Shown: positions 7,573-64,000, counted from the first letter of the stretch. The stretch is DNA of 64,000 nucleotides from an uncultured Pseudomonadales bacterium (GCA_964635905.1 CAZWPK010000001.1:352293-416292); one strand, 5' to 3'. The notes: generated from the letters alone by a model not told the origin. A program made the numbers and translations.

Positions 7573-7587
7573 ATCGATAGACTACTA

Positions 7588-8640: not shown

Positions 8641-8660
8641 ATCTAGAGTTGTAGCATGAT

Positions 8661-9257: not shown

Positions 9258-10276
9258 GTCTTCCTTTTAGACTGTTTCCAACTAAGATATGCAACGACAG
9301 CTAACACGGGACACAAAAGTAGTAGCGCTGAGGGGGCATCAAGGATTACCACAACCCCTTCTTGCGTAAATTTCACATCTCCTGGTTCCGAGTGACCGGT
9401 GATGTTTACCGTGTAAGCTAAGGATGGAAGCAAGGGTCGAATGCTTCGAAGTGACACGCTGAGTTCGCGTTGCGCCCGTGGAAGTACGATAAACGATCCT
9501 TCGTTAATTGTTCCCTCTAGTACAGTTCTGCCCCAGAGATCTGTAATGGTGATTGTTCCTCTGGGAATGACATGAATATTTCCCTGATTTTCAAATAGTA
9601 ACGGGACGGTCGAGGGAAACTGGGGTTGGAAAAATGATTGCAACAACTCGACCTTACCCAACGATAAGTGGTACTGTTCCCCACCAATTTTTCGGATTAG
9701 TAAAAAAGATGATAGTGCGGGAACAACGGAGGGTGTGTCCTGAATCGACGATGAATTGGAACGTATGACCACAGCCGCATAGTGTCCACCGGGTGCTAAA
9801 TTTAATTGGTTTGCTACCCGCACTGTTAATGACTGGGTTTGTCCGGCTTTCAGCACAAATGTGGCAGGTGTCACCGTAATCGAGTCAGCTATAGAAACTG
9901 ACTCACTCGTGACGGGTTTATCCGTGAGAATTGTTGTTCCCTGACTATCAACTTGCGAAAACAAGAAGACAGAGGCGCTAAACTCTAAGTCTTTTTCAGT
10001 GGAATTATGCAATGTGAGCTCTTGAGTCGTTTCAAGACTGCCTTCCGATAATGAGAGCTGAGCAAATGGTGGACTAAGCGTGACTGTCGAATCCGTTGTC
10101 TGTGCTTGCACGGACAATGGAGAAATCACTACTCCTAGATAGACGGTGGCGGCGGCGAACGCTGCAATTTGGAGCGAATAAAGCGTACGAACGAACCGAT
10201 AGTGGTTCGTAAACCAATTCCAATAAATATGACAATGAGCAAAACTGCGAGACATATTCTCCATGGGATTACCCAA
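9254..10276 (-). CDS. CscA-like surface protein (DUF916/WxLIP_PGBD plus DUF3324/WxLIP_HBD-like architecture) with a C-terminal TM anchor. The start is uncertain.
   Basis: Signal peptide, two beta-sandwich-like halves, motif NQGNIHVIPRGTITI, and a C-terminal TM (ALLLLCPVLAVVAYLSW) followed by KQSKRKT. Paralog of the next two genes. The ORF-track start overlaps the upstream gene by ~140 nt, so the true start is probably internal (e.g. ~10255) or a frameshift is present. Confidence 0.45.
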   Translation of the reverse strand: MGNPMENMSRSFAHCHIYWNWFTNHYRFVRTLYSLQIAAFAAATVYLGVVISPLSVQAQTTDSTVTLSPPFAQLSLSEGSLETTQELTLHNSTEKDLEFSASVFLFSQVDSQGTTILTDKPVTSESVSIADSITVTPATFVLKAGQTQSLTVRVANQLNLAPGGHYAAVVIRSNSSSIQDTPSVVPALSSFLLIRKIGGEQYHLSLGKVELLQSFFQPQFPSTVPLLFENQGNIHVIPRGTITITDLWGRTVLEGTINEGSFIVLPRAQRELSVSLRSIRPLLPSLAYTVNITGHSEPGDVKFTQEGVVVILDAPSALLLLCPVLAVVAYLSWKQSKRKT

Positions 10277-32602: not shown

Positions 32603-32955
32603 AGTAGCCGAACGGTTGAAAGAACTGTTTGAACAATGTTGTCAGATGAATGAATGGGATATTGTAGAGCTGAATGTGCAGAGGGATCACGTTCACCTGT
32701 TAATACAGATCAATCCACGGAACTCAGTAGCAGAGGTTATGCAACGATTGAAAGGTGGGAGTAGTAGAGTGATCCGCATGGAATATCCAGAACTAGAAGA
32801 GTTTTTGTGGGGGGATAGCTTTTGGTGTGATGGCTACTTTGCCGAGAGTGTTGGAACAGTGAACCAGACCATCATCCAAAACTATATTAAAAATCAACAT
32901 CAATCATGAGGTAGGAGTAAAATCCCCGCTCTTCAGAGCGGGGATTACATTAATC
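32430..32955 (+). mobile_element. IS200/IS605-family insertion sequence (tnpA only). Ends are approximate.
   Basis: Y1/HUH transposase gene flanked by a left-end hairpin (ctccagcctttgaaggctggag, 32441..32462), a GGAGCGAAGCGGAG motif, and a perfect right-end hairpin atccccgctcttcagagcggggat (32922..32945). Confidence 0.6.
32508..32909 (+). CDS. tnpA: IS200/IS605-family transposase TnpA (HUH Y1).
   Basis: HRLLVHLVWCPKYRRRVL, RDHVHLLIQINP (HuH), SFWCDGYFAESVG (catalytic Tyr region). The track start 32505 is a TTG; the ATG is at 32508. Confidence 0.85.
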   Translation: MREYKTGASTKHRLLVHLVWCPKYRRRVLIGKVAERLKELFEQCCQMNEWDIVELNVQRDHVHLLIQINPRNSVAEVMQRLKGGSSRVIRMEYPELEEFLWGDSFWCDGYFAESVGTVNQTIIQNYIKNQHQS

Positions 32956-52030: not shown

Positions 52031-52162
52031 CATTCCATTGGAGCGAAGCGAGGAATGCGCGGATGAATGAGCGAGAGCATGGCGGAGCCATGCTAAGCTG
52101 TTCATTCCTTGCACAGAACCCCGCATAAGTTACCATTGGAGCGAAGCGAGACGAATGCGGGG
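52031..52162. repeat. Cluster of three imperfect palindromic hairpins (IS200-family subterminal structures). Two share the loop ATTGGAGCGAAGCGAG.
   Basis: cattcc-ATTGGAGCGAAGCGAG-gaatg (52031..52057). agcatgg-cggag-ccatgct (52077..52095). ccccgcat-...ATTGGAGCGAAGCGAG...-atgcgggg (52119..52162). The GGAGCGAAGCG motif is also present in the other IS left end (32475..32488). Confidence 0.6.
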
Positions 52163-52207
52163 GTGGATGAAACTAACTTGCCACGTGAAATGTGGTAAGT
52201 TGTCAGC

Positions 52208-52639
52208 ATGAGAACAAGGAAGTTGAATCATTCTGTGTACCAGCATCAATATCACTTGGTGTGGGGTACACGGTATCGTAGACCCTTCATCAAACAGTAT
52301 GTGAAAGATGAACTCCTCATCTACATTAAACGGATTGTGGCCAAGTACCCCACACTCCACCTCATCGAAGTGAATACTGATAAAGATCACATCCATCTTC
52401 AGATTGAGATACCACCCAATTTGACAGTAAGTACGGTTGTGCAACGCATCAAGAGCGAGAGTAGCGTGCCATTAAAGAAACGATTTCCCTTTATCAAGGA
52501 GATGTACTTAGATGAGGGGGTATGGAGTGTGGGCTATTATTCAAGCACGGTAGGACTCAATGAGAAAACAATACAGGAATATATTAAGTATCAGCAACGA
52601 GAGGAGAAGCCCACACAATTCAAACTTCCGTTCTCATGA
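52208..52639 (+). CDS. tnpA: IS200/IS605-family transposase TnpA (HUH Y1).
   Basis: YHLVWGTRYRRPFI, DKDHIHLQIEIPP (HuH), VWSVGYYSSTVG (Tyr region). Confidence 0.85.
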   Translation: MRTRKLNHSVYQHQYHLVWGTRYRRPFIKQYVKDELLIYIKRIVAKYPTLHLIEVNTDKDHIHLQIEIPPNLTVSTVVQRIKSESSVPLKKRFPFIKEMYLDEGVWSVGYYSSTVGLNEKTIQEYIKYQQREEKPTQFKLPFS

Positions 52640-52724
52640 TGGAACGTTGGATACCCCGTACGACCATCGGGAGTGCGGGGAGGACGTCATTACCTACAAC
52701 TTTCCTTAATTGTCTGAAGCATTT

Positions 52725-53084
52725 ATGACAACAAGATATTTAGAGCAACATCTTCCCATGTTGATACATTCCAGCTTAGATATTCGGGCTTCAAAAGTTG
52801 AAGAGGAATGGCCAGGTATTAGACATGTTCCAGATGAAATACTACGGGTTGAATTAATTGGGGCATTTCAACTTCTCGCGGAGAGGCTAGATTTTAACAA
52901 ATCTAAAGAACGTGCAAATAGAATCCTGCAGTTGCTGTATAGATCAGGAAAGGTACTACCTGGATTTAATATCGCCGCTCAGTTTTTAGCTTCTGCAACC
53001 AATAGAGAGTTAGCTTCAATTGCACATATTCCTCATGATGAAATCGATGCAATTGATTTAGCATTAAGAAATAATCGAGAGTAG
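52725..53084 (+). CDS. Small paralogous protein (family A) with a C-terminal HhH-like motif.
   Basis: Shares the W-PG-R...LLRSGK...GF block and C-terminal ELASIAHIPHDEIDAIDLALRNNRE with the 53240 and 54599 genes. Confidence 0.45.
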   Translation: MTTRYLEQHLPMLIHSSLDIRASKVEEEWPGIRHVPDEILRVELIGAFQLLAERLDFNKSKERANRILQLLYRSGKVLPGFNIAAQFLASATNRELASIAHIPHDEIDAIDLALRNNRE

Positions 53085-53239
53085 TCTGTAGATGCATGCC
53101 ATTCCGTCTGTATGTTGAGATGTAGTGTCCTATCTCCCCTGCCAGCGCTTGAACCCTCTGGGTCTAGCAATCTGCCAGTCCAACTAGAGTTGTGTTAGAA
53201 TTACGGCCAGCTAAGTACTCGTTTAGTGTAGGAGAGAAT

Positions 53240-53602
53240 ATGACCACTGAATTTATTCAAAACAACTTCCCTGATTTCGAGAAATGGTATCTTTCGCTTC
53301 GAGCTAGAAAAGTTGTTGAAGTATGGCCCGGGGTTCGATTGGTGAGTGACGAAGATTTTTTCGTTGCTCTAACACAAGTATCGGCCAAATTAAACCCTGA
53401 TGCGGATGCGAATAGGTGGGAAGCGAATGCACGAGGAATTCTCAACCAACTACTGCGCTCTGGTAAAGCGATACACGGGTTTGATATGACAGCCAAAGTT
53501 TCAGCAGCGTTAACAGATGCAGAGTTACTAACGATTCCTCAGATTGGCCGTGAACGTATCAAGGCTATTAATCTGGCCATAGATTCCCTGCGACGTGAGT
53601 AA
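53240..53602 (+). CDS. Small paralogous protein (family A) with a C-terminal HhH-like motif.
   Basis: Strong SD AGGAGAG before the ATG at 53240. VEVWPGVRLV...LLRSGKAIHGF...ELLTIPQIGRERIKAINLAIDSLRRE. Confidence 0.5.
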   Translation: MTTEFIQNNFPDFEKWYLSLRARKVVEVWPGVRLVSDEDFFVALTQVSAKLNPDADANRWEANARGILNQLLRSGKAIHGFDMTAKVSAALTDAELLTIPQIGRERIKAINLAIDSLRRE

Positions 53603-53628
53603 GGTAGGCAACGATTATCATTAGTCTC

Positions 53629-54516
53629 ATGCGATCATCTGTACGATTCGGCGCAACATTTTCGCATTTGCATGCACAGTGGCTAGGTCTTGATGTTCGT
53701 TCTACCTTCAAACAGACACTCGCGTTGAAATTCGATTACCTTCGTTTGTGCTGCTACTGGAAAGAGTGTGAACCACAGCGGGGTGAGTACCATTTCTCCT
53801 CACTGGATGAACTGCTCACATTTTGTGAGCGATCAAAACAAGCGGTGGTAGTGACTGTGGGAATGAAAGCTCCACGATGGCCAGAATTTCATCTCCCAGA
53901 GTGGACCAGTTTTGATGATCCTGACCTCCATGCGCATGTGTTGCGATTCATAACAGCTGTTCTTTTGCATCTGCGTCACTATCATTGTATTCGTTATTGG
54001 CAGGTAGAAAACGAGCCGATAGAACGAATGGTTACGAATTTCCGTGCTATCTCTACGTCGTTTTTTTATCAGGAGGTATCATTGGTGCAAAGCTTAGATC
54101 ATCGTCCGATCATCGGTACGATGCTTGCCAATTCCCGTTACCTTTTTTTCCCCGAGCGGACTCTAGGGAGATACTGTGATGTCCTGGGAGTTGATTTGTA
54201 CTTCAAGATCCCGATTTTGGGAGTCTTGACCCTGCCCTTTCTCGAAATTCCAGGAAGTCTACGACGATTGATCATGGGAAGTTCGAAACCTGTTTGGATC
54301 ACGGAACTTCAGGCAGAACCCTGGGAATCGCAGAACTCTTTTTCCAAACAGAAACGAACTGTGGACATCACGGCATCAGGACTTAGAGACAACACGTATA
54401 AGGCACAAAAAATGGGTGCGACAACCATTTTCTTTTGGGGAGTGGAGTATTGGTTTGCTCAACAAAAAAGAGGAGATCGTTCGCTTCTACAAACAGCAAA
54501 AATGATCATGCGTTAG
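53629..54516 (+). CDS. Clan GH-A glycoside hydrolase (GH5/GH42/GH113-like).
   Basis: Acid/base WQVENEP and nucleophile ITELQAEPW spaced ~100 aa apart, as in the (beta/alpha)8 clan GH-A. Confidence 0.45.
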   Translation: MRSSVRFGATFSHLHAQWLGLDVRSTFKQTLALKFDYLRLCCYWKECEPQRGEYHFSSLDELLTFCERSKQAVVVTVGMKAPRWPEFHLPEWTSFDDPDLHAHVLRFITAVLLHLRHYHCIRYWQVENEPIERMVTNFRAISTSFFYQEVSLVQSLDHRPIIGTMLANSRYLFFPERTLGRYCDVLGVDLYFKIPILGVLTLPFLEIPGSLRRLIMGSSKPVWITELQAEPWESQNSFSKQKRTVDITASGLRDNTYKAQKMGATTIFFWGVEYWFAQQKRGDRSLLQTAKMIMR

Positions 54517-54598
54517 CCTCGATAGATTCTTACCGTATTTTCAAACATTTGGCGTATACTCTGCCCTACAGAGACACGATCCTACTATTTAGAGTTTG

Positions 54599-54964
54599 AT
54601 GACCGATCAATTCTTGGCTCAACAACAATTTTCCTCCCCTACTTCCTTTGACGCTCGCATGGCGATTTTAGTTAAGCTGGAATCTCTTGAGCGTATCCGA
54701 ACCCTGACCGATCACGCCACAATTCAATTTCTGATAAAAGCCCAGGTCCAATTAGGTGGCACAGAGAAATCTGCCAGCTCGTATGCGACGCAGATCTATC
54801 ATATCTTCATCCGCAAAGGTTGGGTTCTCGTGGGAATGCAGGAATTTGCTGTAGCACTGCACGCGGTAACAACCAAAGAGCTTCTTTCCGCTGATCGAAT
54901 AGGAAAAATTGCTATTCCTCGAATAGATCTTGCGATTGCACTCATGCATGGAAATAGGCACTAA
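54599..54964 (+). CDS. Small paralogous protein (family A) with a C-terminal HhH-like motif.
   Basis: KELLSADRIGKIAIPRIDLAIALMHGNRH aligns with the C-termini of the two paralogs upstream. Confidence 0.4.
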   Translation: MTDQFLAQQQFSSPTSFDARMAILVKLESLERIRTLTDHATIQFLIKAQVQLGGTEKSASSYATQIYHIFIRKGWVLVGMQEFAVALHAVTTKELLSADRIGKIAIPRIDLAIALMHGNRH

Positions 54965-54967
54965 GCA

Positions 54968-55711
54968 CTACTCCAAGAAATGGACAAACAGTCCTAAGAG
55001 CAGGATTCCTCCCAAGAACGGCAGAGTCTGCATCCACTTCCGTTTTTCCGAAAGTTCTTTGTGCAGTTCCGGGATCAAATCTGAACAGGCGATGTACAGA
55101 AACATTCCAGCCGTAAAGCTCAGAAGTATCCAGGAGAGTCCCTCGATCGTTTCAAAGAAAAAGTACGCAGATACTGCCCCAATTACGGCGGTGAGTCCGG
55201 AGATGAAGTTATACAGCAACGCTTTTTTCTTTTTCATCCCCCCACTAATGAGCACACTAAAATCTGCAATTTCCTGGGGAATTTCGTGCGCGGCAATGGC
55301 CAGAGTGGTAGTCATCCCTAGAGCTGGATTAACCAAAAAGGCAGCCGCGATCGCAACCCCATCGATGAAGTTATGTACGGCATCACCAAGCAAAATCAAT
55401 ACTGAAGTGGGAGCATGTCCGTGCGAGGCATGGTGGTGATGAAACCAGACTACAAAGCGTTCTAAAAAGAAAAACGCTACGATTCCCACCAAGACTGGTA
55501 CAAAGACAGCTTCTTCCCCGCCGGAAGCCTCTAACGCTTCTGGGAGCAAGTCTAATAAGGCTGCCGATAACATGATGCCAGCCGCAAAGCTTACTAATGA
55601 CGAGGTAAAGGTTGAGTTGGAGAAAAGCCGATGATTGACTAGAAAGATCCCTCCCACAAACGAGACGGCACTGACTAAAAGGCTTGCAAGCAAAATGAGG
55701 AGTAATGTCAT
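54968..55711 (-). CDS. ZIP-family divalent metal transporter (ZupT-like).
   Basis: His-rich loop HHHHASHGH. ZIP signature LGDAVHNFIDGVAIAAAF and HEIPQEIADFSVL. Confidence 0.75.
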   Translation of the reverse strand: MTLLLILLASLLVSAVSFVGGIFLVNHRLFSNSTFTSSLVSFAAGIMLSAALLDLLPEALEASGGEEAVFVPVLVGIVAFFFLERFVVWFHHHHASHGHAPTSVLILLGDAVHNFIDGVAIAAAFLVNPALGMTTTLAIAAHEIPQEIADFSVLISGGMKKKKALLYNFISGLTAVIGAVSAYFFFETIEGLSWILLSFTAGMFLYIACSDLIPELHKELSEKRKWMQTLPFLGGILLLGLFVHFLE

Positions 55712-55743
55712 GCCCTAATTATCGCAACAGAGTTGCGTATTGT

Positions 55744-56316
55744 CTAGAGGGATTTGAGTGCAAATTCTAAACCGATTCGATGGATTTCACCATACAGCTT
55801 GCCATAATCACTCCAGCGAAAGATTTCTTCCTCTATGATAAGAGGGTTTTTACTTGGAATGGTAATAAGCTCTGAAGGTAGGGAGGCATACGTGCTTATC
55901 AGCTCTTCCATTTCTTTGAGGGTGAGATGTCTGACTCCATCGAGATCATCATTTGCGGTGATATCTTGAGAGTCACAGGTAAGCGCATACAGATAGGTGG
56001 TAAACTCGTAGGCTTTTTTGGTGGATTCCTCATCAATTTGCGCAATGATGGTGGCAACCTCGTTGAGAGCGGTAGGATATACCTCAATACCCAGTTCTTC
56101 TTGAAGCTCTCGTGCTGCTCCCGTTTTAGGATCTTCGTTCCCCTCCAGTCCCCCTCCGACAAAGCGCACAATTCCAGGAGGATAGATATCTTTGGCGCCC
56201 AGTACAAGCTTCCCCTGCTCATCGATGACCATGATGAGGGCATGTCGACCACGTTTCATGACGGGCGGTACGTGTGTAAATGAAAACTGCAGTTTACGGG
56301 AAGGAGCTGAATCCAT
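55744..56316 (-). CDS. NUDIX hydrolase.
   Basis: Nudix box GGGLEGNEDPKTGAARELQEELGIEV. Confidence 0.8.
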   Translation of the reverse strand: MDSAPSRKLQFSFTHVPPVMKRGRHALIMVIDEQGKLVLGAKDIYPPGIVRFVGGGLEGNEDPKTGAARELQEELGIEVYPTALNEVATIIAQIDEESTKKAYEFTTYLYALTCDSQDITANDDLDGVRHLTLKEMEELISTYASLPSELITIPSKNPLIIEEEIFRWSDYGKLYGEIHRIGLEFALKSL

Positions 56317-56368
56317 AGAGTTCTATTGTACATGGAAGCGAATCATTTTCCCATGATATACTCGAGGA

Positions 56369-57133
56369 ATGCAGCATTCACATCAATCCTGGGATAATGT
56401 ATCGACTTGGTATGACAAGTTAGTCGGAGCCAAAGGGCAATATTTCCATCAACATGTTATTTTCCCAAACGTCTTTTCGCTCCTTCGCTTAAAGACCCCG
56501 GTGTCTATTTTAGACTTAGGTTGTGGACAAGGAGTCTTTTGTCGAGAGTTAGCCCAAAAAGGGCACACCGTGACCGGAGTGGACGCATCAAAGAAACTCA
56601 TTGAACAAGCCAAGCACTATAAGTCAAACGCCAGCATTGACTACATTGTGGATGATGCCCGCACGCTAAAAAACCTTACCAATCGGCAATATGATCGGGT
56701 TGTCTCCATTCTCTCATTACAAAACATTGATCCGATTGAGGGTGTGTTTGAACGCGTGAAAGCGCTGTTGAAACCGGGTGGTCTATTTGTCGTTGTGATC
56801 CTGCATCCCTGTTTTAGATCGCCGCGTATCACGGGATGGGGTGAGGATGAACGACGAAAACTGCAATATCGTCGCGTTGATCGCTATCTATCCCCCATGG
56901 AAATTCCGATTCAAATGCATCCCGGAAAAGAACATGGACCCATTACTTGGACTTATCATCGTTCCTTGACCTTCTATAGCAAAATAGCCAGAGCCAATGG
57001 TTTACTGATTGATGCCATTGAAGAATGGACCAGCGATCGACAATCTGAAGGAAAATTTGCGAAGATGGAAAATTTAGCTCGAAGTGAAATTCCGATGTTT
57101 ATGGCACTTCGCTTCAAAAAGGTAGTCAAATGA
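56369..57133 (+). CDS. Class I SAM-dependent methyltransferase.
   Basis: Motif I ILDLGCGQGVF. Post-I acidic VTGVDAS. Motif LKPGGLFVV. Confidence 0.75.
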   Translation: MQHSHQSWDNVSTWYDKLVGAKGQYFHQHVIFPNVFSLLRLKTPVSILDLGCGQGVFCRELAQKGHTVTGVDASKKLIEQAKHYKSNASIDYIVDDARTLKNLTNRQYDRVVSILSLQNIDPIEGVFERVKALLKPGGLFVVVILHPCFRSPRITGWGEDERRKLQYRRVDRYLSPMEIPIQMHPGKEHGPITWTYHRSLTFYSKIARANGLLIDAIEEWTSDRQSEGKFAKMENLARSEIPMFMALRFKKVVK

Positions 57134-57759
57134 CACGTGTACTACACTGGCTAGCCTTAGTCATTATTCCCATCTGGTGGATCTTTCATCTGTTATGGAA
57201 TCCTGTCGTTGTGGATGTCATGGCTTCCATAAGTTATCGATTACAATCACCAATTGTTTCGTCGACGACACTTCTAGAGGCTCGAAATCGTGCCCTAAAA
57301 ATTGCAACCAACGGCACTAGGGATGAGCGTGATGTTGTGTTCACTCCCAATGAGGTTTCGCATTTAAACGACGTGGCGACCTTGTACATTCCAGTTGCTA
57401 GGGTTCTAAATTTCTTATGTGTCTGTGCCTGGATACTACTGTTGGCGACGTTACTTAAACAACACTCCATCCTCCCAAGTTTGAAACTGGCGGCAGTGAC
57501 ATTTAGTGTTCTTGTGGTCATCTTAATTCTTTGCAGTCTCTTTTTCTCGCTCTTCTTCACCCAATTTCATTCGTCGCTGTTTCCTCAAGGAAATTGGCAG
57601 TTTCCCGAGGATTCTTTGCTCATTCAATCCTTTCCAGAGATCTTTTGGAAACTCATGGTAGCGCTTCTTGCCCTGCTTTGTGCTGGTGTGGCAACACTCT
57701 ATGCGCTACTATCGTTGCTAGGACGGTCGTCCTCAAGCAATGATGAATCTACTTGCTAA
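57130..57759 (+). CDS. Integral membrane protein (DUF1461/TIGR01906-like).
   Basis: Four TM helices plus FHSSLFPQGNWQFPEDSLLIQSFPEIFW, reminiscent of TIGR01906. Overlaps the MTase gene by 4 nt. Confidence 0.35.
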   Translation: MTRVLHWLALVIIPIWWIFHLLWNPVVVDVMASISYRLQSPIVSSTTLLEARNRALKIATNGTRDERDVVFTPNEVSHLNDVATLYIPVARVLNFLCVCAWILLLATLLKQHSILPSLKLAAVTFSVLVVILILCSLFFSLFFTQFHSSLFPQGNWQFPEDSLLIQSFPEIFWKLMVALLALLCAGVATLYALLSLLGRSSSSNDESTC

Positions 57760-58348
57760 ATACGGTCACTATCTGTTTCTACTCATCGTTTCCCTTGGTC
57801 TGATTTATGGCTCGGGTGGTTCGATTAAGTTGGATCAGTTGCCGACAATCTATCCTAAAGTGCTTTCGATGTTCATATCGGTTCCGGAAGGTTTCGTGCC
57901 CGTTCTAGATGTGTTAGACGGCGATACCATTGTGGTTGATTTGGATGGATCTGAAGAAACGGTACGACTATTAGGCGTTGATACTCCAGAAACACGCGAC
58001 CCGCGCCGACCTGTTCAATGTTTTGGCAATCAAGCCTCAGACTACACCAAACAGATGCTGTTAGGCAAAGCGGTCAAATTGGTGATTGATCCTACAGATG
58101 ATAACCGTGATAGTTTTGGGCGACTGCTTCGCTATATCTATCTTGAAGATGGCACCATGATCAACGAACGATTAGTGTATGATGGCTATGCCTTTGCCTA
58201 TGAAAAATACCCAACAGCGCGAACGACTCTGCTCAAACAAATGGAAGCCGATGCAAAAAAGAACAATCGCGGATTATGGGGAGGCTGTGACGTAACGATC
58301 AAAGACAATGGAAAATCAAAGGCTACCCAGTCCGTAATCAAACCCTAA
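57740..58348 (+). CDS. Thermonuclease (staphylococcal nuclease-like, SNase) family protein.
   Basis: VLDGDTIVVDL...VRLLGVDTPET...GKAVKL..D...DSFGRLLRYIYLEDGTMINERLVYDGYA...GLWG. Confidence 0.8.
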   Translation: MMNLLAKYGHYLFLLIVSLGLIYGSGGSIKLDQLPTIYPKVLSMFISVPEGFVPVLDVLDGDTIVVDLDGSEETVRLLGVDTPETRDPRRPVQCFGNQASDYTKQMLLGKAVKLVIDPTDDNRDSFGRLLRYIYLEDGTMINERLVYDGYAFAYEKYPTARTTLLKQMEADAKKNNRGLWGGCDVTIKDNGKSKATQSVIKP

Positions 58349-58354
58349 CACTGT

Positions 58355-59020
58355 ATGGAAACCGGAATTGTATACACCCGAGTAGTCTCCGATCGGGCAC
58401 GACGTATTTCAATCAAAATTAATGCGCAAGGAGAAGTGGTGGTCACAACACCCCGCTGGGTTGCCAACCGCGATTTGAGTCGCTTTGTAGAAGCATCCCG
58501 CGATTGGATTATGGCCCACAAACATAAAGTCGCGACTAAGCCACATTTAATCAGCTTGCAGTCAGTCTATTATTTGGGCAAGGAGTATGCACTCAAACAA
58601 TCCAACAAGATGGACGGTTCGGTCCGTTTTTATCAGGATTCTTTGATCCTCGCGCCGACCATCCTTACCGCAAAAAACGCACTAGCATTACTTGAAAAAT
58701 GGCTGCAATCCAAGGCACGACACCTCATCACGCAGCGAACCCAGTATTGGAGTGAACAGATGCAGCTTCCTTTCAATGGAATGGCATTCAAACAGCAAAA
58801 AACCCGATGGGGCAGTTGTTCTTCAACCAAGCACTTAAATTTTAATTGGAAACTGATTCATGCACCACTGGAAGTCATTGATTACGTGATCATTCATGAA
58901 TTAAGCCATACCAAGCACATGAATCATGGCAAGCAATTTTGGGATTTGGTGGCACGTTTTGACCCAGATCATCCGCACCATCGACGCTGGTTACAGCGAT
59001 TCGGGAGTACCGAAGACTAG
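58355..59020 (+). CDS. YgjP-like (DUF45) M48-family metal-dependent hydrolase.
   Basis: C-terminal HExxH IIHELSHTKHMNHG in the YgjP/WLM context, with KTRWGSCS upstream. Confidence 0.7.
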   Translation: METGIVYTRVVSDRARRISIKINAQGEVVVTTPRWVANRDLSRFVEASRDWIMAHKHKVATKPHLISLQSVYYLGKEYALKQSNKMDGSVRFYQDSLILAPTILTAKNALALLEKWLQSKARHLITQRTQYWSEQMQLPFNGMAFKQQKTRWGSCSSTKHLNFNWKLIHAPLEVIDYVIIHELSHTKHMNHGKQFWDLVARFDPDHPHHRRWLQRFGSTED

Positions 59021-59094
59021 TTGATGCCTGAGTCATAGACGACTTTCTTACAAAAGGCGTACAATACTCGGTAGTACAATTTTCAAACCCTTGT

Positions 59095-59475
59095 ATGGAT
59101 ACTTTGAACAGCCCAGATGATTACCGAAGTGACGACATTTCATCTCAGCCTTCTGGAGAGGCTAGCACACCCATACCGTCTACTAACAAGCGACGAATTG
59201 GACTCATTTCGAGTGTGATACTCGTGCTTTTTTTAGGTGCATCTGTAAGTTATGCAATGTTGAAACGTTCAACCACGAATGGCAATGCAACGGAAGTCAC
59301 ACAGGAAGAGTTGATGGAAGACACTCTACCCGATCATAATTCTCGTCAGGAAGACGATACGCGTGATACGCTGACGGCAGCAACCCGCTCCGCAACAGCG
59401 TCACCTGCAGTTGTTCGGTCGACGTCATCCCCGCCGAGTGGGATACCCCCACCATTTTCTCCCCTAATAATCTGA
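59095..59475 (+). CDS. Hypothetical Ser/Thr-rich membrane protein. The 3' end overlaps the recombinase gene, which may be an element junction.
   Basis: One TM helix (IGLISSVILVLFLGASV). Low-complexity C-terminus. Its last 130 nt are antisense to the recombinase C-terminus. Confidence 0.3.
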   Translation: MDTLNSPDDYRSDDISSQPSGEASTPIPSTNKRRIGLISSVILVLFLGASVSYAMLKRSTTNGNATEVTQEELMEDTLPDHNSRQEDDTRDTLTAATRSATASPAVVRSTSSPPSGIPPPFSPLII

Positions 59476-60935
59476 TACATGGGGCTAATTTCATAGTTCG
59501 GTGTGCCTGTTTTGTCCATACTCAGTCCGGAAGGGAAGACCGAACACAACAAGACCTTGATCTGGTGGCGATTAGATCGTTGGTACGTTTCTCCTAAATC
59601 AGCTAAGCGAGTTTTGACGAAATCAGTAATAGCAGTGATATCGTACTTCTCAAAAGTACCGTCATCTTTAGCGATCTGAGCCATTAGCATTTTTTCTTCG
59701 ATGATGTCGTTTTGTTCCTTAAAGACATCGTCTGAGTACACCCCATTTAAGTTTTTCCCCACCAGGGTTTTTCTAAGATCCTTCAGATTAGCTATTTCTT
59801 GCTCAGCACTCTGTCTAATGACACTAAATTTTTTCAACCGGTCGGTGTAGGTTCTGGTAATCATAGCAATGAATAAGTCTAAACCCTCCTTTTTAGGTGA
59901 GATACCTTTGAGCAGGGACACTACAGTACTTTCAACTTTGTCAGCATTCACCGAAGCGGTCACACACTTATCACTACAACGGTAGTAGCCATACTTTTTG
60001 AGTTTCCCCTTACTCCACGAAGCAGTCAAACCTGCTCCACAATAACTACAGCGAATAATACGGCGCAAAGGGAAATCTATGCTTAGCTTATCGCGCTGAG
60101 CAAATTGGATTTTACTGACATTTCTGCCATCCAGAATTGCTTGTACCTTATAAAACTGTTCTTCACTAATCATGGGAACGTGCTGGCCTTTTACTTCATC
60201 TGGATACTTTCTTGACGTGATAATCCCCATATAAAACTTGTATCTGAAGATTCGTTGAGTGGTTTGTGGCCTAAGCAATTGCTTGTGGTGACCTCTGCCG
60301 TCTCTTAGCCCCCACTCATTCATAACTTTGGCTATGTCAGCCAAACTCTTACTACCAGTTGCCATCAAATCCCAAGCGTCTTTGACTTTGTCATAGGTCT
60401 CGGGATCTTTTACGACTAAACCATTCGATAAAATGTACCCTAGAGGTGGTTTACCGCTGATTAAACCAGACAGGAAACGTGCTCTCAAACCATTTCTAGC
60501 TCGTTCTCCTCGGATATCGTTATCCAGTTGTGCAAACCCTGCCAGCATTGTTTCTACTAACTTTTCAGTTGGAGTATCACCCGTTGGTTCTGTCGCCGAA
60601 ATAACACTCACACCATATTCTTCCAGTTTCTTTCTAATGGCAAGGTAGTCGGAAGTCTGGCGAGAAATGCGGTCTAACCGATAAATAAAGACCGCACCTA
60701 GCTGACCTTTGTTTTTACGGCAGTACTCAATTAAATTCAGCAAAGTTGGTCGCCCAATAATTGTTTTGGCTGACTTTCCTTCCTCCCTAAAAGTATCTAT
60801 AACTTCATACCCTCTTTTTTGAGCTTCTTTCCGACAGATATCTGCCTGTGTTTCTAGTGAGAAGTTTTCAACTTGTTCCTCACTGGATACCCGCAGGTAG
60901 AGCACCGCCTTCTTTAGCTCAGCGTCGTTTGACAT
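59346..60935 (-). CDS. Large serine recombinase (resolvase/invertase N-terminal domain, recombinase domain and zinc ribbon).
   Basis: Catalytic YLRVSSEEQ. Motif ISATEPTGDTPTEKL. Zn-ribbon CSYCGAGL...YYRCSDKC. The ATG at 60935 has a perfect AAGGAG SD (track start 61001 is upstream). Confidence 0.85.
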   Translation of the reverse strand: MSNDAELKKAVLYLRVSSEEQVENFSLETQADICRKEAQKRGYEVIDTFREEGKSAKTIIGRPTLLNLIEYCRKNKGQLGAVFIYRLDRISRQTSDYLAIRKKLEEYGVSVISATEPTGDTPTEKLVETMLAGFAQLDNDIRGERARNGLRARFLSGLISGKPPLGYILSNGLVVKDPETYDKVKDAWDLMATGSKSLADIAKVMNEWGLRDGRGHHKQLLRPQTTQRIFRYKFYMGIITSRKYPDEVKGQHVPMISEEQFYKVQAILDGRNVSKIQFAQRDKLSIDFPLRRIIRCSYCGAGLTASWSKGKLKKYGYYRCSDKCVTASVNADKVESTVVSLLKGISPKKEGLDLFIAMITRTYTDRLKKFSVIRQSAEQEIANLKDLRKTLVGKNLNGVYSDDVFKEQNDIIEEKMLMAQIAKDDGTFEKYDITAITDFVKTRLADLGETYQRSNRHQIKVLLCSVFPSGLSMDKTGTPNYEISPMYQIIRGENGGGIPLGGDDVDRTTAGDAVAERVAAVSVSRVSSS

Positions 60936-61251
60936 AAGCTCCTTTCTCGTGCAGTATTTCTGCAACTGTTTTACCTTTAAAAATACTTTTCTCAAATTCA
61001 TCTAACCAGCAGGTAGTGAGATACTTCACCTCAGTAACAATTTCCTTTAACTCATCAGCTGTAAATTCATCTGCCAGATCACCAAGTATTTTCCTTGCTT
61101 CTTTTACTTCTTTATCCTCTGAATCAAGCTGGGAAAAGTAGGATCGTAGTAACTCGCCAGTGTTTTCTTCAGTTTGCCGAAAAGATTCTTGAGAGGGCAT
61201 GGTTGAAAATTCAGGGAAAGTCGTAGCAGGAGCAGCATAGGTATCAGGCAT
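60919..61251 (-). CDS. Small acidic hypothetical protein upstream of the recombinase, possibly an element accessory protein.
   Basis: 110-aa ORF overlapping the recombinase start by 17 nt. No motif. Confidence 0.3.
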   Translation of the reverse strand: MPDTYAAPATTFPEFSTMPSQESFRQTEENTGELLRSYFSQLDSEDKEVKEARKILGDLADEFTADELKEIVTEVKYLTTCWLDEFEKSIFKGKTVAEILHEKGAYVKRR

Positions 61252-61394
61252 ATCACTTCATTCAAGTTTCATCATACTATACTCATATTGATATAACTAT
61301 AAGTATAGTTTACCAGATGAGATAGGCCTGTCAAGTAAAGCTAAAAGAAGTTATTTGCGTGATATACTAAGCACTAATTTGATGATGTAAAAAT

Positions 61395-64000
61395 ATGGAC
61401 ATACTTGAGTATTTAGTTACTACCATTCCACTTTTTCAAAAACTGAGTTTTTTTCTAGTTGAACTAAGAATTTTGCTCAACGCAGTACTGCCTATTTTTT
61501 TGCTTTTAATTGTGCTGGCAACTATTATTGTGACGATTCTACAAATAGCCATAAGAATGTATCGTTTCGCTGTCTTTAAGAAACAAAAAACAGTTTTACT
61601 CGAGCTGATACCGCCCTCTGTCACTAATCAAGAACCACACACTACAGAACAACTTTTTTCTCTGATTCACGCCCTGGGTGGAAGAGGTACTTTTATTTCA
61701 CGGTTACTTGGCATTAAACCCAGATTTTCACTAGAGATTGTTTCCACCAAGCATCAGGGCATTCGCTATTTAATCCAAACTTCAGTAAAAGAAGCGGCTA
61801 CGCTTAAGCAGAACCTTCTCTCATACCTGCCACAACTGACAATTCGGGAAACGATTGATTATGTTCCCCAAACGGTTGCAAAAAACAATGAACGCTTGAT
61901 TGAACTGTCTTTAGCTCGCCACTTTATCTACCCATTAAAGAAACAAAATGAGCTGGATGAACATGACCCCATTGCCTACATCACCGGTATGATGAGCAAG
62001 TTGCTTCCAGGGGAACTGATTGCCTTGCAGATTGTCCTGTCACCAGTCGTATCAAGAGAAGCTAAGAAAATAGCCCAGCAGGCTTTAAACAATAAAGACA
62101 TACTTTCTGTCATTGAAAACCAAGAACGAAACAAAGTTTTTTTGCTCGTTTCTGTTCTAAAATTTATTTTTACTTGTGTTAGCTTTATTTTCACTTTGCC
62201 AGTTTGGCTGATTGGTAACTTAGCGACTGATGGCAATACGCCGTTTCCGATGGAGCTATTTCCTAACAATCACAAGTTGCGTCAGGAGACTACTTTTGAA
62301 AAAGATGTGGTTAATAGTATCTACGCCAAAGCTAGCCAACCGTTATTTGAAGCTTCAATTCGGTTGGTAGTGATGACTGATGCTCCGCATACGTTGGACA
62401 GTAGACTAAAGGGAATTGTGACTTCTTTTTCCAGTTTCAACTCGCCTCAGGGTCAAACCTTAGTCAGCAAAAAGCCATCTTTTTTTAGCTTTATGAAGAG
62501 TAGGCATGAAGAATTTAGTTATCGCTTACCATCACTCAAACCAGCCGTTCTTTCAGTCTCTGAGGTGTCTGACTTGTATCACTTCCCCCATACGCGGATC
62601 ACAAAGACAGAAGATATTGTTAAAACATATAGCAAACAATTGCCAGCACCACTATCTCTCAAGAGAAATACACTGCTCGATGTGACGTTTGCGCAAAATA
62701 CCTATGGTGGCACTAGTACATCAATTGGCTTAACTGAAGAAGAACGTCGCCGTCACGTCTATATCCTCGGAGCCACTGGAACCGGTAAAACAACCTTACT
62801 ACTCTCCATGCTTAACCAAGACATTCAAAAAAGGAAAGGTGTCTGCTTAATTGATCCTCACGGTGATTTGGCAGAAAGCCTCTTACCGCTAATACCTAAA
62901 GATAGAGTCAAAGATGTGATTTATTTTAATCCTGATGATAGTGAAAATCCCATTGCCTTAAATCTGCTTGAGCTGCCTAACTCGCCTGGTGCTACAGAAG
63001 CGGAGAAATTGCGAGATCAAGAATTTATCACAGAAAGTATTATTTCACTCTTTAATAAACTTTATCCAGATCATACTGCCCGACCACGGATGGAATACAT
63101 ATTGCGGAATACGATCTACACCGCTTTTCTCACACCAAACCCAACTATTTTTACGATTCTGAAATTACTGGTGGATGCACCATTCCGACGAACAGTGGTG
63201 AAGAAACTCGCCACACTGCCTGATAAAAATTTATACAACTTCTGGAAGTATGAATTTAACAAAGCGGGTGATTACCAAAAAGTGTCTATGATTATGCCGA
63301 TCACTAACAAAATTGGCCGTTTCCAGTTTTCACCTACAGCCCGAGGCATATTAGAACAAGAAAAATCAAAGATTGATTTTGAAAATATTATGGACTCAGG
63401 GAAGATCCTAATTTGTAATGTCTCCAAGGGCAGATTGGGAGAAGATATTTCAGAGATGTTTGGGATTTTACTGCTGACTAAGATTCAACTTGCGGCTCTG
63501 AGAAGAGCGAAAAAGAAAATAGCTGATCGTAAAGATTTCTATCTGTATGTTGATGAGTTTCAAAACTTTGCCACTCCTGCCTTTGCCCAAATTTTATCTG
63601 AGGCTCGAAAGTATCGTTTGAATGCGATTTTGGCTCACCAAACCGTTTCTCAAATTGAAGATCGCTCATTGGTGAATGTCACCTTAGCCAATGCTGGCAC
63701 GGTCATTTGTTTTAGAACAGCCAACCCTTTGGACGAAGAATTAATGTTACCTCAATTTGTACCCCATATTGATCAAGGTGAAATCAGTAACTTACCTTCA
63801 TATCATTTCTTTATGAAGGTTTCTGCCATTGAACCACAAATGCCTTTCTCCGGTGAAACTTTACCAGTAAAAATACCAGATGATCGAGAAAAAGTTGCGA
63901 ACATTATTGAGAGTTCAAGAGAACAATATTCCACACACATTAATCCAGTGTTATCAGCTCAGGAGCAAGAAAAAGATAAATCTCCAAAACCGAGAACTGA
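61395..64000 (+). CDS. TraD/VirD4/TraG-like (FtsK/HerA-clade) P-loop ATPase with N-terminal TM helices, a putative type IV coupling protein. Partial: it continues past the window end.
   Basis: Open frame from the ATG at 61395 to the window end (>868 aa), absent from the ORF track. Two N-terminal TM helices. Walker A YILGATGTGKTTLL. Walker B FYLYVDEFQNFAT. Low GC. Confidence 0.55.
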   Translation, partial: MDILEYLVTTIPLFQKLSFFLVELRILLNAVLPIFLLLIVLATIIVTILQIAIRMYRFAVFKKQKTVLLELIPPSVTNQEPHTTEQLFSLIHALGGRGTFISRLLGIKPRFSLEIVSTKHQGIRYLIQTSVKEAATLKQNLLSYLPQLTIRETIDYVPQTVAKNNERLIELSLARHFIYPLKKQNELDEHDPIAYITGMMSKLLPGELIALQIVLSPVVSREAKKIAQQALNNKDILSVIENQERNKVFLLVSVLKFIFTCVSFIFTLPVWLIGNLATDGNTPFPMELFPNNHKLRQETTFEKDVVNSIYAKASQPLFEASIRLVVMTDAPHTLDSRLKGIVTSFSSFNSPQGQTLVSKKPSFFSFMKSRHEEFSYRLPSLKPAVLSVSEVSDLYHFPHTRITKTEDIVKTYSKQLPAPLSLKRNTLLDVTFAQNTYGGTSTSIGLTEEERRRHVYILGATGTGKTTLLLSMLNQDIQKRKGVCLIDPHGDLAESLLPLIPKDRVKDVIYFNPDDSENPIALNLLELPNSPGATEAEKLRDQEFITESIISLFNKLYPDHTARPRMEYILRNTIYTAFLTPNPTIFTILKLLVDAPFRRTVVKKLATLPDKNLYNFWKYEFNKAGDYQKVSMIMPITNKIGRFQFSPTARGILEQEKSKIDFENIMDSGKILICNVSKGRLGEDISEMFGILLLTKIQLAALRRAKKKIADRKDFYLYVDEFQNFATPAFAQILSEARKYRLNAILAHQTVSQIEDRSLVNVTLANAGTVICFRTANPLDEELMLPQFVPHIDQGEISNLPSYHFFMKVSAIEPQMPFSGETLPVKIPDDREKVANIIESSREQYSTHINPVLSAQEQEKDKSPKPRT

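What the first reader, a model, noticed from the sequence alone, without database searches (positions are those of the whole stretch)
59346..64000. Edge of an integrative element: large serine recombinase plus TraD/VirD4-like ATPase, lower GC
A 529-aa large serine recombinase with a perfect SD is followed by an AT-rich intergenic region and a divergently transcribed, TM-anchored P-loop ATPase with Walker A GATGTGKTT and Walker B LYVDEFQNF, resembling type IV coupling proteins. GC drops compared with the upstream housekeeping block (SAM MTase, thermonuclease, YgjP). This is the signature of an integrated conjugative or mobilizable element whose remainder lies beyond the window.
Basis: partly seen in the sequence, partly recalled or inferred. 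Interest (0 to 1): 0.6.

Follow-up and report, generated by a model that had tools for sequence, protein, structure and literature searches.

The report
Integrase end of a mobilizable element
The window ends inside an integrated mobile element of an ultra-small (Patescibacteria/CPR) bacterium that carries its own integrase, DNA-coupling ATPase and relaxase; the family is widespread, usually sits beside tRNA genes, and hints that these bacteria exchange DNA by conjugation.

Summary
A 529-aa large serine recombinase lies at 59346-60935(-). A membrane-anchored VirD4-like P-loop ATPase starts at 61395(+), and GC is lower here.

I recovered 12.6 kb beyond the window from a 100%-overlapping contig. 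It holds a MobC-type (Replic_Relax) relaxase candidate, DUF2958 and a restriction-modification/Z1 cluster. It holds no VirB4.

The backbone recombinase / small gene / coupling ATPase / relaxase / DUF2958 recurs in over 100 Patescibacteria loci with unrelated flanks. In about 94% of them the recombinase 3' end overlaps the 3' end of a convergent tRNA gene. Copies 99.85% identical sit at two different tRNA-Ser genes, which indicates recent mobility.

The window copy is atypical: it has only a degenerate tRNA-like vestige, and its far end is unmapped.

On the sequence recovered this is an integrative mobilizable element, not a demonstrated self-transmissible one. Closest analogues are streptococcal IME class 8 and Dehalococcoides ssrA islands. 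It is a new variant of a known kind, of moderate interest.

The parts
59346..60935 (-). Large serine recombinase (integrase), 529 aa. The last ~37 codons (59346-59456) are a non-conserved tail that runs past the predicted element end.
   Evidence: Pfam Resolvase, Recombinase and Zn_ribbon_recom. NCBIfam's best match is CcrB, far below cut-off. PDB sequence hits are the TP901-1 and A118 integrases. It is 54-67% identical to recombinases of related loci.
60919..61251 (-). Conserved small partner gene ('SM', 110 aa) directly upstream of the recombinase and overlapping it by 17 nt. Function unknown. I infer a candidate directionality factor or regulator.
   Evidence: Present directly upstream of the recombinase in 65 of 69 related loci with room for it. 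It has a conserved C-terminal ~70 aa with W82, L83, E87 and F91 invariant. No Pfam or PHROGs family matches.
61252..61394 (.). AT-rich divergent intergenic region. It holds a promoter-like site (TTGACA-16-TAAACT, TG-extended) at 61334..61307 on the minus strand, facing the SM-recombinase operon.
   Evidence: Consensus scan. The total number of promoter-like sites is not above the shuffled expectation, so this is only a candidate. Sequence.
61395..64000 (+). VirD4/TrwB-like type IV coupling ATPase with an N-terminal DUF8128 domain. 868 of its 881 aa are in the window, and it ends at window-equivalent 64040.
   Evidence: Pfam. P0001 carries PF26449+PF10412+PF01935+PF12696. PDB profile hits are TrwB and DotL. 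Foldseek hits are VirB4, DotL, Cagbeta, TrwB and HerA. The C-terminus is seen in L166.
59430..59441 (.). Predicted left junction of the element (about 59435|59436). It lies where the conserved recombinase tail '...PLG' ends and family similarity stops.
   Evidence: By analogy with junctions in relatives. The family's element-end motif GGGATA starts 4 nt inside (59440). The same motif lies at +3 to +5 in 31% of 61 recombinase-adjacent tRNA junctions and in 0% of 99 other tRNAs. Inferred, not shown.
59438..59452 (+). Hairpin GTGGG-ATACC-CCCAC followed by CATTTTC, just inside the element end.
   Evidence: Terminator-like scan. A hairpin at this position, with different stem sequences, is common in relatives: mean MFE -7.8 against -5.4 kcal/mol for shuffles, lower in 77% of 64 junctions.
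59360..59432 (+). Possible degenerate tRNA vestige (tRNA-Cys(gca)-like, poor stems), placed where relatives have an intact convergent tRNA.
   Evidence: No tRNA is found by ARAGORN at default settings or by Rfam at E<=10. It is detected only at ARAGORN -ps75/-ps70. A chance hit on that strand ending within 5 nt of the junction has a probability of about 0.01-0.02. Weak evidence.
59095..59475 (+). 126-aa ORF (one TM segment, low-complexity tail) that overlaps both the vestige and the recombinase 3' end. It is either a real gene cut by the insertion or a spurious ORF.
   Evidence: Listed and called as a gene on the Logan contig. No Pfam or NCBIfam hit. Not resolved.

Best explanation
Window 59.44-64.0 kb is the integrase-proximal end of an integrated mobilizable element in a Patescibacteria (CPR, Microgenomates-like) chromosome.

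The element's backbone has these parts:
- a large serine recombinase with a small, translationally coupled partner gene;
- divergently from them, a membrane-anchored VirD4-like coupling ATPase;
- just beyond the window, a MobC-type (Replic_Relax, restriction-endonuclease-like) relaxase candidate and a DUF2958 gene;
- after those, restriction-modification/Z1 cargo.

Proposed mechanism (inferred, nothing here was assayed):
1. The recombinase excises the element as a circle.
2. The relaxase nicks an unidentified oriT.
3. The element's own coupling protein docks the relaxase-DNA complex onto a type IV secretion system. That system could be the host cell's resident one or one carried by a larger element.
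4. In the recipient, the recombinase inserts the element. In this family the site is normally the extreme 3' end of a tRNA gene.

The window copy is atypical. It abuts only a degenerate tRNA-like sequence, so it may sit at a secondary site or be an old insertion.
For: The parts are shown by domain hits.

The continuation beyond the window is secure. L166 positions 1-456 equal window 63545-64000 at 100%. P0001, P0122 and P0241 are all recorded on a contig of 504,786 bp.

The relaxase candidate P0122 carries PF13814. Its relatives score 27-49 bits against a cut-off of 25.3. Its model (pLDDT 90.5) best matches FokI, then MarR-type winged helices. PF13814 corresponds to MobC (PMC5357655, Table 1).

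The module recurs:
- In 24 genome loci seeded with the ATPase, the recombinase or relaxase accompanies it in 16.
- In 80 metagenome loci seeded with the recombinase, SM is present in 65/69, the ATPase in 31/40 and the relaxase in 28/30 of those with room.
- The flanks are unrelated.

Evidence of mobility:
- L101 and L133 are 99.85% identical over 7.5 kb but abut tRNA-Ser(gga) and tRNA-Ser(tga) respectively. Acceptor positions 7 and 66 covary, which places the crossover in the last ~11 nt of the tRNA or just 3' of it.
- Near-identical recombinase ends are joined to different tRNA-Leu genes.
- 24 of 80 contigs break within 150 nt past the recombinase end, against 2 of 80 on the other side.
- A convergent tRNA lies at the recombinase end in 73/83 copies by a strict rule, and about 78/83 after inspection.

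The low GC continues for at least 12.6 kb past the window.
Against: - The window copy has no intact tRNA at its end.
- Its far end, any att repeat and any empty site were not found.
- No VirB4 or mating-pore genes lie in the 12.6 kb recovered. I could not check whether this genome has a type IV secretion system at all.
- The ATPase fails every curated NCBIfam coupling-protein cut-off (best 51 bits against 366).
- Its structure model is mediocre (pLDDT 65) and matches VirB4 and HerA as well as coupling proteins.
- The relaxase has no tblastn match in PLSDB plasmids, and its nicking chemistry is untested.
- Contig breaks at tRNA genes could partly reflect tRNA sequence being repeated across a community rather than element polymorphism.
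- The published survey regards Patescibacteria T4SS and coupling proteins as probably exapted for non-conjugative roles (PMC12102498).
Confidence: 0.8

Rival explanations
1. Fossil element. The block descends from such an element, but this copy is fixed. Its target tRNA has decayed and it no longer excises or transfers.
For: There is no intact tRNA at the recombinase end, unlike about 94% of relatives. Only a vestige appears, and only at a permissive threshold. The closest relative by ATPase (L082, 68%) also lacks a tRNA and has a similar degenerate tail. That suggests an older, vertically inherited sub-lineage. No att repeat was found.
Against: The recombinase, SM, ATPase and relaxase reading frames are all intact, with catalytic motifs. 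The element-end motif and hairpin are preserved. The cargo differs between the window element (Z1 plus a type II restriction-modification system) and L082 (type I restriction-modification system), which indicates turnover.
Confidence: 0.25
2. Self-transmissible ICE. The element is larger than the part recovered and carries its own type IV secretion genes further on.
For: In L006, L007 and L008 the same module is followed within 5-9 kb by a pilin, a pilin-VirB6-like protein, PrgI, a VirB4-like ATPase and an M23 hydrolase. In L097, L118 and L125 pilin-like genes lie beyond DUF2958. GC is still low at the end of L166.
Against: No mating-pore gene lies in 12.6 kb after the ATPase. The last genes there (MFS transporters and the 185-aa protein P0241, 55-80% identical across many CPR) look chromosomal. 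In L083 the module appears bounded at 6.4 kb by a 14-nt repeat, without secretion genes.
Confidence: 0.12
3. Not mobile. The ATPase is the coupling protein of the resident, essential Patescibacteria type IV secretion system, used for host interaction. The recombinase next to it is an unrelated or regulatory gene.
For: Coupling-protein homologues are very common in Patescibacteria: 5,713 in 2,918 genomes, mostly far from virB4, with exaptation proposed (PMC12102498). In Saccharimonadia loci L015-L023 a homologous ATPase ends the secretion operon and no recombinase is nearby.
Against: Here the ATPase is flanked by an integrase and a relaxase candidate, not by secretion genes. The three-gene linkage persists while the flanks change. 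Near-identical copies occupy different tRNA loci.
Confidence: 0.07
4. The ATPase is a HerA/FtsK-type chromosome or repair translocase, and the region is ordinary chromosome.
For: DUF87 (HerA central domain) is the top Pfam hit at 41 bits. HerA 4d2i appears among the fold matches.
Against: TrwB_AAD_bind and TraG-D_C also pass their cut-offs. HerA_C and the NCBIfam HerA model are far below cut-off. The PDB profile search ranks TrwB and DotL first. TM-scores normalised to the target are higher for TrwB, DotL and Cagbeta (0.41-0.47) than for HerA (0.36). The protein has an N-terminal membrane anchor and an adjacent relaxase, and no NurA/Mre11/Rad50 context.
Confidence: 0.02

Closest known systems
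Streptococcal IME_Class_8 (Coluzzi et al. 2017, PMC5357655; reviewed in PMC5704250)
   Same: A compact integrative mobilizable element with the same triad: a serine integrase, a Rel_PF13814/MobC relaxase and its own VirD4-type coupling protein, with no mating-pore genes. The proposed logic is also the same: the element substitutes its own coupling protein for that of a helper secretion system.
   Different: The host phylum differs. The coupling protein here carries an extra N-terminal DUF8128 domain. The relaxase is too divergent for tblastn against plasmids. Serine-recombinase IMEs are described as inserting inside protein-coding genes (PMC5704250), whereas this family sits at the 3' end of tRNA genes. 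There is also a conserved small partner gene of unknown family.
Dehalococcoides ssrA genomic islands with the CcrB-like serine recombinase DsiB (McMurdie et al. 2011, PMC3146451)
   Same: A large serine recombinase gene sits at the island edge, and its 3' end overlaps the 3' end of a tRNA-like gene on the opposite strand. Its C-terminal tail is variable. The elements are interpreted as IMEs. The window recombinase's best NCBIfam match is also CcrB.
   Different: - DsiB islands use a single target (tmRNA), insert in the T-loop and leave a 20-bp direct repeat.
- This family uses many tRNA species. The crossover maps to the last ~11 nt or just 3' of the tRNA, and no repeat of 12 nt or more was seen.
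- ssrA islands encode a second small serine recombinase (DsiA) and no coupling protein or relaxase.
CloDF13-type mobilizable plasmids (MobC relaxase plus own coupling protein), as summarised in PMC5704250
   Same: A MobC-class relaxase is paired with an element-encoded VirD4-family coupling protein on a non-self-transmissible element.
   Different: CloDF13 is a plasmid rather than an integrated element, has no integrase, and comes from Proteobacteria. No direct sequence comparison was made here.
Patescibacteria type IV secretion system and its coupling-protein homologues (Quinonero-Coronel et al. 2025, PMC12102498)
   Same: Same phylum and the same kind of ATPase. That survey noted many coupling proteins far from virB4, and a few relaxases (MOBC the commonest) of which 39 lie close to a coupling-protein gene.
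   Different: The survey found relaxases in only 103 genomes and concluded that the system is mostly non-conjugative. It did not describe the integrase-linked module or its tRNA association. Here the Replic_Relax family alone has 480 representatives of 50%-identity clusters at E<=1e-30. The taxonomy of those hits is unknown.

Membership tests
Large serine recombinase (serine integrase) | N-terminal resolvase catalytic domain with the serine nucleophile motif | tested here: met
   PF00239 at 115 bits against a cut-off of 23.3. YLRVSSEEQ and DRISRQ are present in the translation.
Large serine recombinase (serine integrase) | C-terminal recombinase domain plus zinc-ribbon domain | tested here: met
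   PF07508 at 40.5 bits and PF13408 at 36 bits, both above cut-off. A118 and TP901-1 integrase chains match.
Large serine recombinase (serine integrase) | Short att sites with a 2-bp crossover and no long direct repeats | tested here: inconclusive
   No repeat of 12 nt or more between the junction and the element interior in 30 loci, apart from a 14-nt match in L083. This is consistent with the feature, but the crossover itself is not mapped.
Type IV coupling protein (VirD4/TrwB/TraD) | N-terminal membrane anchor followed by a Walker A/B nucleotide-binding domain | tested here: met
   The model has a helix at residues 2-63 and the sequence there is hydrophobic. GATGTGKT and YVDEFQ are invariant in 18 homologues.
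Type IV coupling protein (VirD4/TrwB/TraD) | Family-specific domains (TrwB_AAD_bind, TraG-D_C) and an all-alpha insertion between Walker A and Walker B | tested here: met
   PF10412 at 37.5 bits (cut-off 20.5) and PF12696 at 25.3 bits (cut-off 22). The model shows nine helices between residues 535 and 668. TrwB and DotL are the best PDB sequence hits.
Type IV coupling protein (VirD4/TrwB/TraD) | Passes a curated equivalog or subfamily model (TraD, CD1115, CedD) | tested here: not met
   The best is TIGR03743 at 51 bits against a cut-off of 366. I therefore file it as VirD4-like, not as a member of any named coupling-protein equivalog.
Type IV coupling protein (VirD4/TrwB/TraD) | Fold closer to coupling proteins than to VirB4, HerA or FtsK | tested here: inconclusive
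   Model pLDDT is 65. The lowest E-values go to VirB4 TrwK (TM 0.2-0.3). The best target-normalised TM-scores go to TrwB, DotL and Cagbeta (0.41-0.47), with HerA at 0.36.
MOBC relaxase (Replic_Relax, PF13814) | Matches PF13814 above the gathering score | tested here: met
   P0122, encoded 1.4 kb past the ATPase, carries PF13814. Relatives score 48.7, 40.8, 36.3 and 26.9 bits against 25.3. The PF13814-to-MobC correspondence is from PMC5357655.
MOBC relaxase (Replic_Relax, PF13814) | Restriction-endonuclease-like catalytic domain. I recall this from Francia et al. 2013; I did not re-read that paper here. | tested here: inconclusive
   The model has pLDDT 90.5. The top PDB match is FokI (E 3.4e-5, TM 0.34), and the N-terminal half matches MarR winged helices. 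A PD motif (P148, D149) is conserved, but no canonical (D/E)xK was identified.
MOBC relaxase (Replic_Relax, PF13814) | Site-specific nicking at an oriT | not testable with these tools
   No oriT was identified. This needs biochemistry.
Integrative and mobilizable element (IME) | Own integrase plus own relaxase (with or without a coupling protein), and no mating-pore genes | tested here: met
   Integrase, coupling ATPase and relaxase lie within 7 kb. No VirB4, VirB6 or pilin gene lies in the 12.6 kb that follows. The element's far end is unknown, so 'no mating-pore genes' holds only for the part recovered.
Integrative and conjugative element (ICE) | VirB4 and other mating-pore genes inside the element | tested here: not met
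   None in window 59-64 kb or in L166. Some relatives do have them.
tRNA-3'-end-targeting sub-family of these elements (defined here) | Recombinase 3' end overlaps the 3' end of a convergent, intact tRNA gene | tested here: not met
   The window has no tRNA there, only a vestige at a permissive threshold. Relatives: 73/83 by a strict rule, about 78/83 after inspection.
HerA/FtsK translocases | HerA_C, FtsK_SpoIIIE or HerA equivalog models, and a NurA or division-gene context | tested here: not met
   HerA_C scores 15.4 bits (cut-off 22) and the NCBIfam HerA model 15.9 bits (cut-off 970). The neighbours are an integrase and a relaxase.

The most novel reading that the evidence does not exclude
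This locus belongs to a phylum-wide family of Patescibacteria mobile elements with three features. Their large serine recombinases are targeted to the extreme 3' end of many different tRNA genes. They bring their own coupling ATPase and a divergent MobC-like relaxase. They use the Patescibacteria type IV secretion system, reported as essential for epibiotic growth in one Saccharibacteria strain, to move restriction-modification systems, diversity-generating retroelements and other cargo between cells. If so, that secretion system is conjugation-competent, and relaxases in this phylum have been under-counted.
Probability: 0.45. Interest if true: 0.75.

Novelty: new variant of a known kind. Interest (0 to 1): 0.55.

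Why it matters
How Patescibacteria exchange genes, and what their type IV secretion system transports, are open questions. In the Saccharibacteria strain tested, that system is essential for epibiotic growth (PMC12857230).

The published survey found few relaxases. [quoted passage not shown]

The module identified here contains a recurrent, divergent MobC-like relaxase linked to a coupling ATPase and an integrase, and there is sequence evidence of recent movement between tRNA loci. That gives concrete candidates for testing conjugative DNA transfer in these bacteria.

It would also extend serine-integrase target choice beyond the one published case I found (tmRNA in Dehalococcoides) to ordinary tRNA genes. 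That is of interest for integrase tool-building.

For this particular window the finding is more ordinary: one edge of one such element, and an atypical copy.

Tried and rejected
- Fetching the source contig. P0001 and P0241 are not in the position index. The genome scan returned only relatives. The metagenome scan found no identical copy, with a best match of 67%. The extension finally came through the relaxase homologue P0122.
- Direct or inverted repeats of the junction. None of 12 nt or more in 30 loci, apart from a 14-nt match in L083 and a second tRNA-Leu in L025. None in L166.
- A tRNA at the window junction. ARAGORN at default settings and Rfam at E<=10 were negative. Only a sub-threshold hit appeared.
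- An empty site. Not attempted further, because the nearest retrievable relative shares only 68% ATPase identity and 54% recombinase identity.
- Function of the small partner gene. Pfam and PHROGs scans of 37 members gave only noise. Structure prediction was not possible, because the alignment rows come from fetched loci, which are not accepted for that tool.
- The 185-aa gene at L166 11271-11828. I first took it for element cargo because it appears near two other elements. I rejected that because it is 55-80% identical across hundreds of CPR proteins.
- Phage origin. The recombinase is only about 25% identical to phage integrases, and no phage genes are nearby.
- The PDB profile search with the relaxase alignment found nothing meaningful.
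Full report
**1. What is in the window.**
The minus strand carries a 529-aa ORF at 59346..60935, with AAAGGAG just before its ATG. It has the three domains of a large serine recombinase: Resolvase 115 bits, Recombinase 40.5 bits and Zn_ribbon_recom 36 bits. Its motifs YLRVSSEEQ and DRISRQ are intact.

Directly upstream, overlapping the recombinase by 17 nt, is a 110-aa ORF (60919..61251).

A 143-bp AT-rich spacer follows. Then a plus-strand frame opens at 61395 and runs off the window, giving 868 aa that contain GATGTGKTT and LYVDEFQNF. This ORF hits DUF87, TrwB_AAD_bind and TraG-D_C above their cut-offs.

GC is 0.38-0.41 at 61-64 kb against 0.44-0.47 just upstream, though 31-36 kb is equally low. 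The upstream genes are a methyltransferase, Lit, SNase and YgjP.

**2. Organism.**
The ATPase has more than 2,296 homologues at E<=1e-5. The named ones are from Woykebacteria, Woesebacteria, Collierbacteria and 'Patescibacteria group'. One protein, P0001, is 100% identical, is 881 aa long and sits on a 504,786-bp NCBI contig. That contig is the likely source of the window.

**3. Extending past the window.**
Direct look-ups of P0001 failed. A search with the gene that follows the ATPase in the closest relative (L082) returned P0122. P0122 is 249 aa, carries PF13814, and is recorded on a contig of the same length, 504,786 bp.

P0122 is also on a Logan contig, L166, from run SRR8893623. That run also yielded a contig identical to window 52045-63573. 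L166 positions 1-456 equal window 63545-64000 at 100%, so a window coordinate equals an L166 coordinate plus 63544.

Beyond the window lie, in window-equivalent coordinates:
- the ATPase stop at 64040;
- a 383-aa membrane or secreted ORF (-) at 64109-65260;
- the Replic_Relax protein (+) at 65461-66210;
- DUF2958 (-) at 66185-66502;
- a Z1-domain protein, an NgoFVII-type endonuclease and a C5 methyltransferase (-) at 66691-70768;
- a small FtsK_alpha-like protein and a zinc-finger protein;
- two GNAT acetyltransferases, MFS transporters and a 185-aa protein.

These 12.6 kb contain no tRNA and no VirB4. GC stays at 0.33-0.42.

**4. The module recurs.**
I ran a genome scan with an ATPase alignment and clustered the ORFs. 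Among the 24 closest loci, the recombinase family or a ~256-aa family lies next to the ATPase in 16.

The ~256-aa family is Replic_Relax, scoring 27-49 bits against a cut-off of 25.3. A ~104-aa family is DUF2958.

In L006-L008 the block is followed by a pilin, a pilin-VirB6-like protein, PrgI, a VirB4-like ATPase and an M23 hydrolase. In Saccharimonadia loci L015-L023, by contrast, a homologous ATPase simply ends such a secretion operon, with no recombinase nearby.

An independent metagenome scan seeded with the recombinase gave the same order:
- the small gene is directly upstream of the recombinase in 65/69 loci with room for it;
- the ATPase is within 2.5 kb in 31/40;
- the relaxase is upstream in 28/30;
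- DUF2958 is upstream in 14/25.

The flanks beyond the recombinase are unrelated. Some of these loci are the same element seen in different samples, so the counts are not fully independent.

**5. The tRNA association.**
In nearly every locus the recombinase ORF runs into the 3' end of a tRNA gene on the opposite strand, and it often stops at the TGA of the T-loop complement. By a strict positional rule, 73 of 83 copies with enough flank have such a tRNA. Inspecting the exceptions raises this to about 78. The tRNAs are Leu (five anticodons), Gly, Ser, His, Lys, Glu, Val, Met, Arg and others.

Recombinase 3' ends that are near-identical are joined to different tRNA-Leu genes, and identity breaks at the acceptor stem.

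L101 and L133 are 99.85% identical over 7.5 kb, yet they abut tRNA-Ser(gga) and tRNA-Ser(tga), and their outer flanks are unrelated. In these two tRNAs, acceptor positions 7 and 66 covary (A-T against G-C). The acceptor 3' strand is therefore chromosomal, and the crossover lies in the last ~11 nt of the tRNA or just beyond it. This is the strongest evidence that the family is mobile.

Three weaker observations agree with it:
- 24 of 80 metagenome contigs end within 150 nt past the recombinase, against 2 of 80 on the other side. tRNA sequence shared among community members could contribute to these breaks.
- Long terminal repeats are absent, as expected for serine integrases. One locus, L083, has a 14-nt repeat that brackets exactly the 6.4-kb backbone.
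- Just inside the junction, many copies have a hairpin and a G[GA]GA[TC]A motif at +3 to +5. The motif is present in 31% of 61 junctions and in none of 99 other tRNAs.

**6. The window copy is an exception.**
No tRNA is detected near 59.35-59.5 kb. By analogy with relatives that share the tail '...PLG', the junction falls at about 59435|59436. The GGGATA motif starts at 59440, and a hairpin lies at 59438-59452.

On the chromosomal side, ARAGORN reports a poor tRNA-Cys-like fold at 59360-59432, but only at a 70-75% threshold. A chance hit at that place and on that strand has a probability of about 0.01-0.02.

The closest relative by ATPase, L082, likewise has no tRNA and has a similar degenerate tail. 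I cannot tell whether this is a decayed target, a secondary site or an old fixed copy. A 126-aa ORF (59095..59475) spans the spot and is unresolved.

**7. What the proteins are.**

*ATPase.* The PDB profile search ranks TrwB and DotL first. The AlphaFold model is mediocre (pLDDT 65). It shows an N-terminal long helix, an alpha/beta DUF8128 region, and a P-loop domain with a helical insertion between Walker A and Walker B. Foldseek returns VirB4, DotL, Cagbeta, TrwB and HerA. Target-normalised TM-scores are highest for the coupling proteins. The protein fails all curated NCBIfam cut-offs. I therefore call it VirD4-like, not a member of a named equivalog.

*Relaxase candidate.* It models well (pLDDT 90.5), as a winged-helix domain plus an alpha/beta domain. 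FokI is its top PDB match. PF13814 corresponds to MobC in Coluzzi et al. (PMC5357655). It has no tblastn match in PLSDB plasmids. A profile search of 1.84 billion cluster representatives finds 480 at E<=1e-30 and 971 at E<=1e-10. The taxonomy of those hits is unknown.

*Small partner gene.* It matches no family.

*Recombinase.* It is only about 25% identical to phage integrases.

**8. Comparison with the literature.**
- Streptococcal IME_Class_8 has the same triad: a serine integrase, a MobC relaxase and a VirD4 coupling protein (PMC5357655, PMC5704250). However, serine-recombinase IMEs are described there as inserting within protein-coding genes.
- Dehalococcoides ssrA islands have a CcrB-like serine recombinase whose 3' end overlaps the tmRNA gene (PMC3146451). 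This is a close precedent for the gene/target overlap. It differs in having one target, a T-loop crossover and a 20-bp repeat.
- The Patescibacteria T4SS survey reports 5,713 coupling-protein homologues, mostly far from virB4, and relaxases in only 103 genomes (PMC12102498). It favours a non-conjugative role. It does not describe this integrase-linked module.
- My full-text searches found no paper describing it. That is an absence in one library, not proof of novelty.

**9. Verdict.**
On the sequence recovered, the region is the integrase end of an integrative mobilizable element, and a self-transmissible element has not been shown. The mechanism is inferred from gene content and from analogy. 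None of it is shown:
- excision by the recombinase;
- nicking by the MobC-like protein;
- docking through the element's own coupling ATPase onto a type IV secretion system;
- re-insertion at a tRNA 3' end.

The activity of this particular copy is uncertain.

Noticed in passing
L093, L102, L139, L152, L154, L160-L164 (e.g. L152:1148-2227, L093:4666-5025, L093:1-2268): Cassettes with the parts of diversity-generating retroelements lie next to the relaxase / small gene / recombinase block in several related loci. The parts are a reverse transcriptase (RVT_1), bAvd and a large FGE-sulfatase/C-type-lectin-fold protein, often with Bro-N and Fic genes. In L160-L164 the cassette takes the place of the coupling ATPase. 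They may be cargo of these elements.
   Followed up: partly
L009:7591-7730 and L012:7726-7843: Just upstream of the target tRNA, on the chromosomal side, the tRNA 5' part plus its leader is repeated in tandem: 46-nt and 43-nt exact repeats, plus a third partial copy. These might be footprints of repeated recombination at the site. Unexplained.
   Followed up: no
window 52208-52639 (+): An IS200/IS605-type Y1 transposase (PF01797, 106 bits), 7 kb from the element. No partner TnpB gene was noticed next to it.
   Followed up: partly
window 52710-53084 and 53192-53602 (+): Two adjacent paralogous small ORFs (124 and 136 aa) right after the IS200-like gene. The 124-aa ORF has no Pfam match; the 136-aa one was not scanned.
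   Followed up: no
window 32945-36985 (-), within the low-GC stretch 31-36 kb: A 1,346-aa ORF with no Pfam match lies in a region whose GC (0.38-0.40) is as low as that of the element. This could be another acquired segment or a fast-evolving surface protein.
   Followed up: no
window ~53-55 kb: Cumulative GC skew rises steadily to about 54 kb and then falls. This may reflect only the change of gene strand and the inserted element, or it may be a replication landmark.
   Followed up: no
L155:~7450-9300 and L154/L156: A second, opposite-strand recombinase copy (613 aa) lies about 2 kb beyond the first element's tRNA, among a cluster of tRNA genes. This suggests neighbouring or tandem elements at tRNA clusters.
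   Followed up: no
L002, L003, L005, L009-L011, L041, L079 (record titles): Several loci carrying this module are titled Gammaproteobacteria or Methylococcaceae MAGs, although their closest protein relatives are from Patescibacteria. This is probably mis-binning or a default label. One such MAG holds two diverged copies of the element (L003 and L010).
   Followed up: no
L166:3147-7224 (window-equivalent 66691-70768): The cargo next to DUF2958 is a Z1-domain protein (weak MzaC-like hit), an NgoFVII-type endonuclease and a C5 methyltransferase. The closest relative, L082, instead carries a type I restriction-modification system plus RadC at the same place. This looks like a swappable defence slot.
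   Followed up: partly
L091, L102, L123 (recombinase 3' ends): Three other copies also lack a tRNA after the conserved tail. Their downstream sequence could be the joined ends of an excised circle (attP) or another kind of target. Not examined.
   Followed up: no
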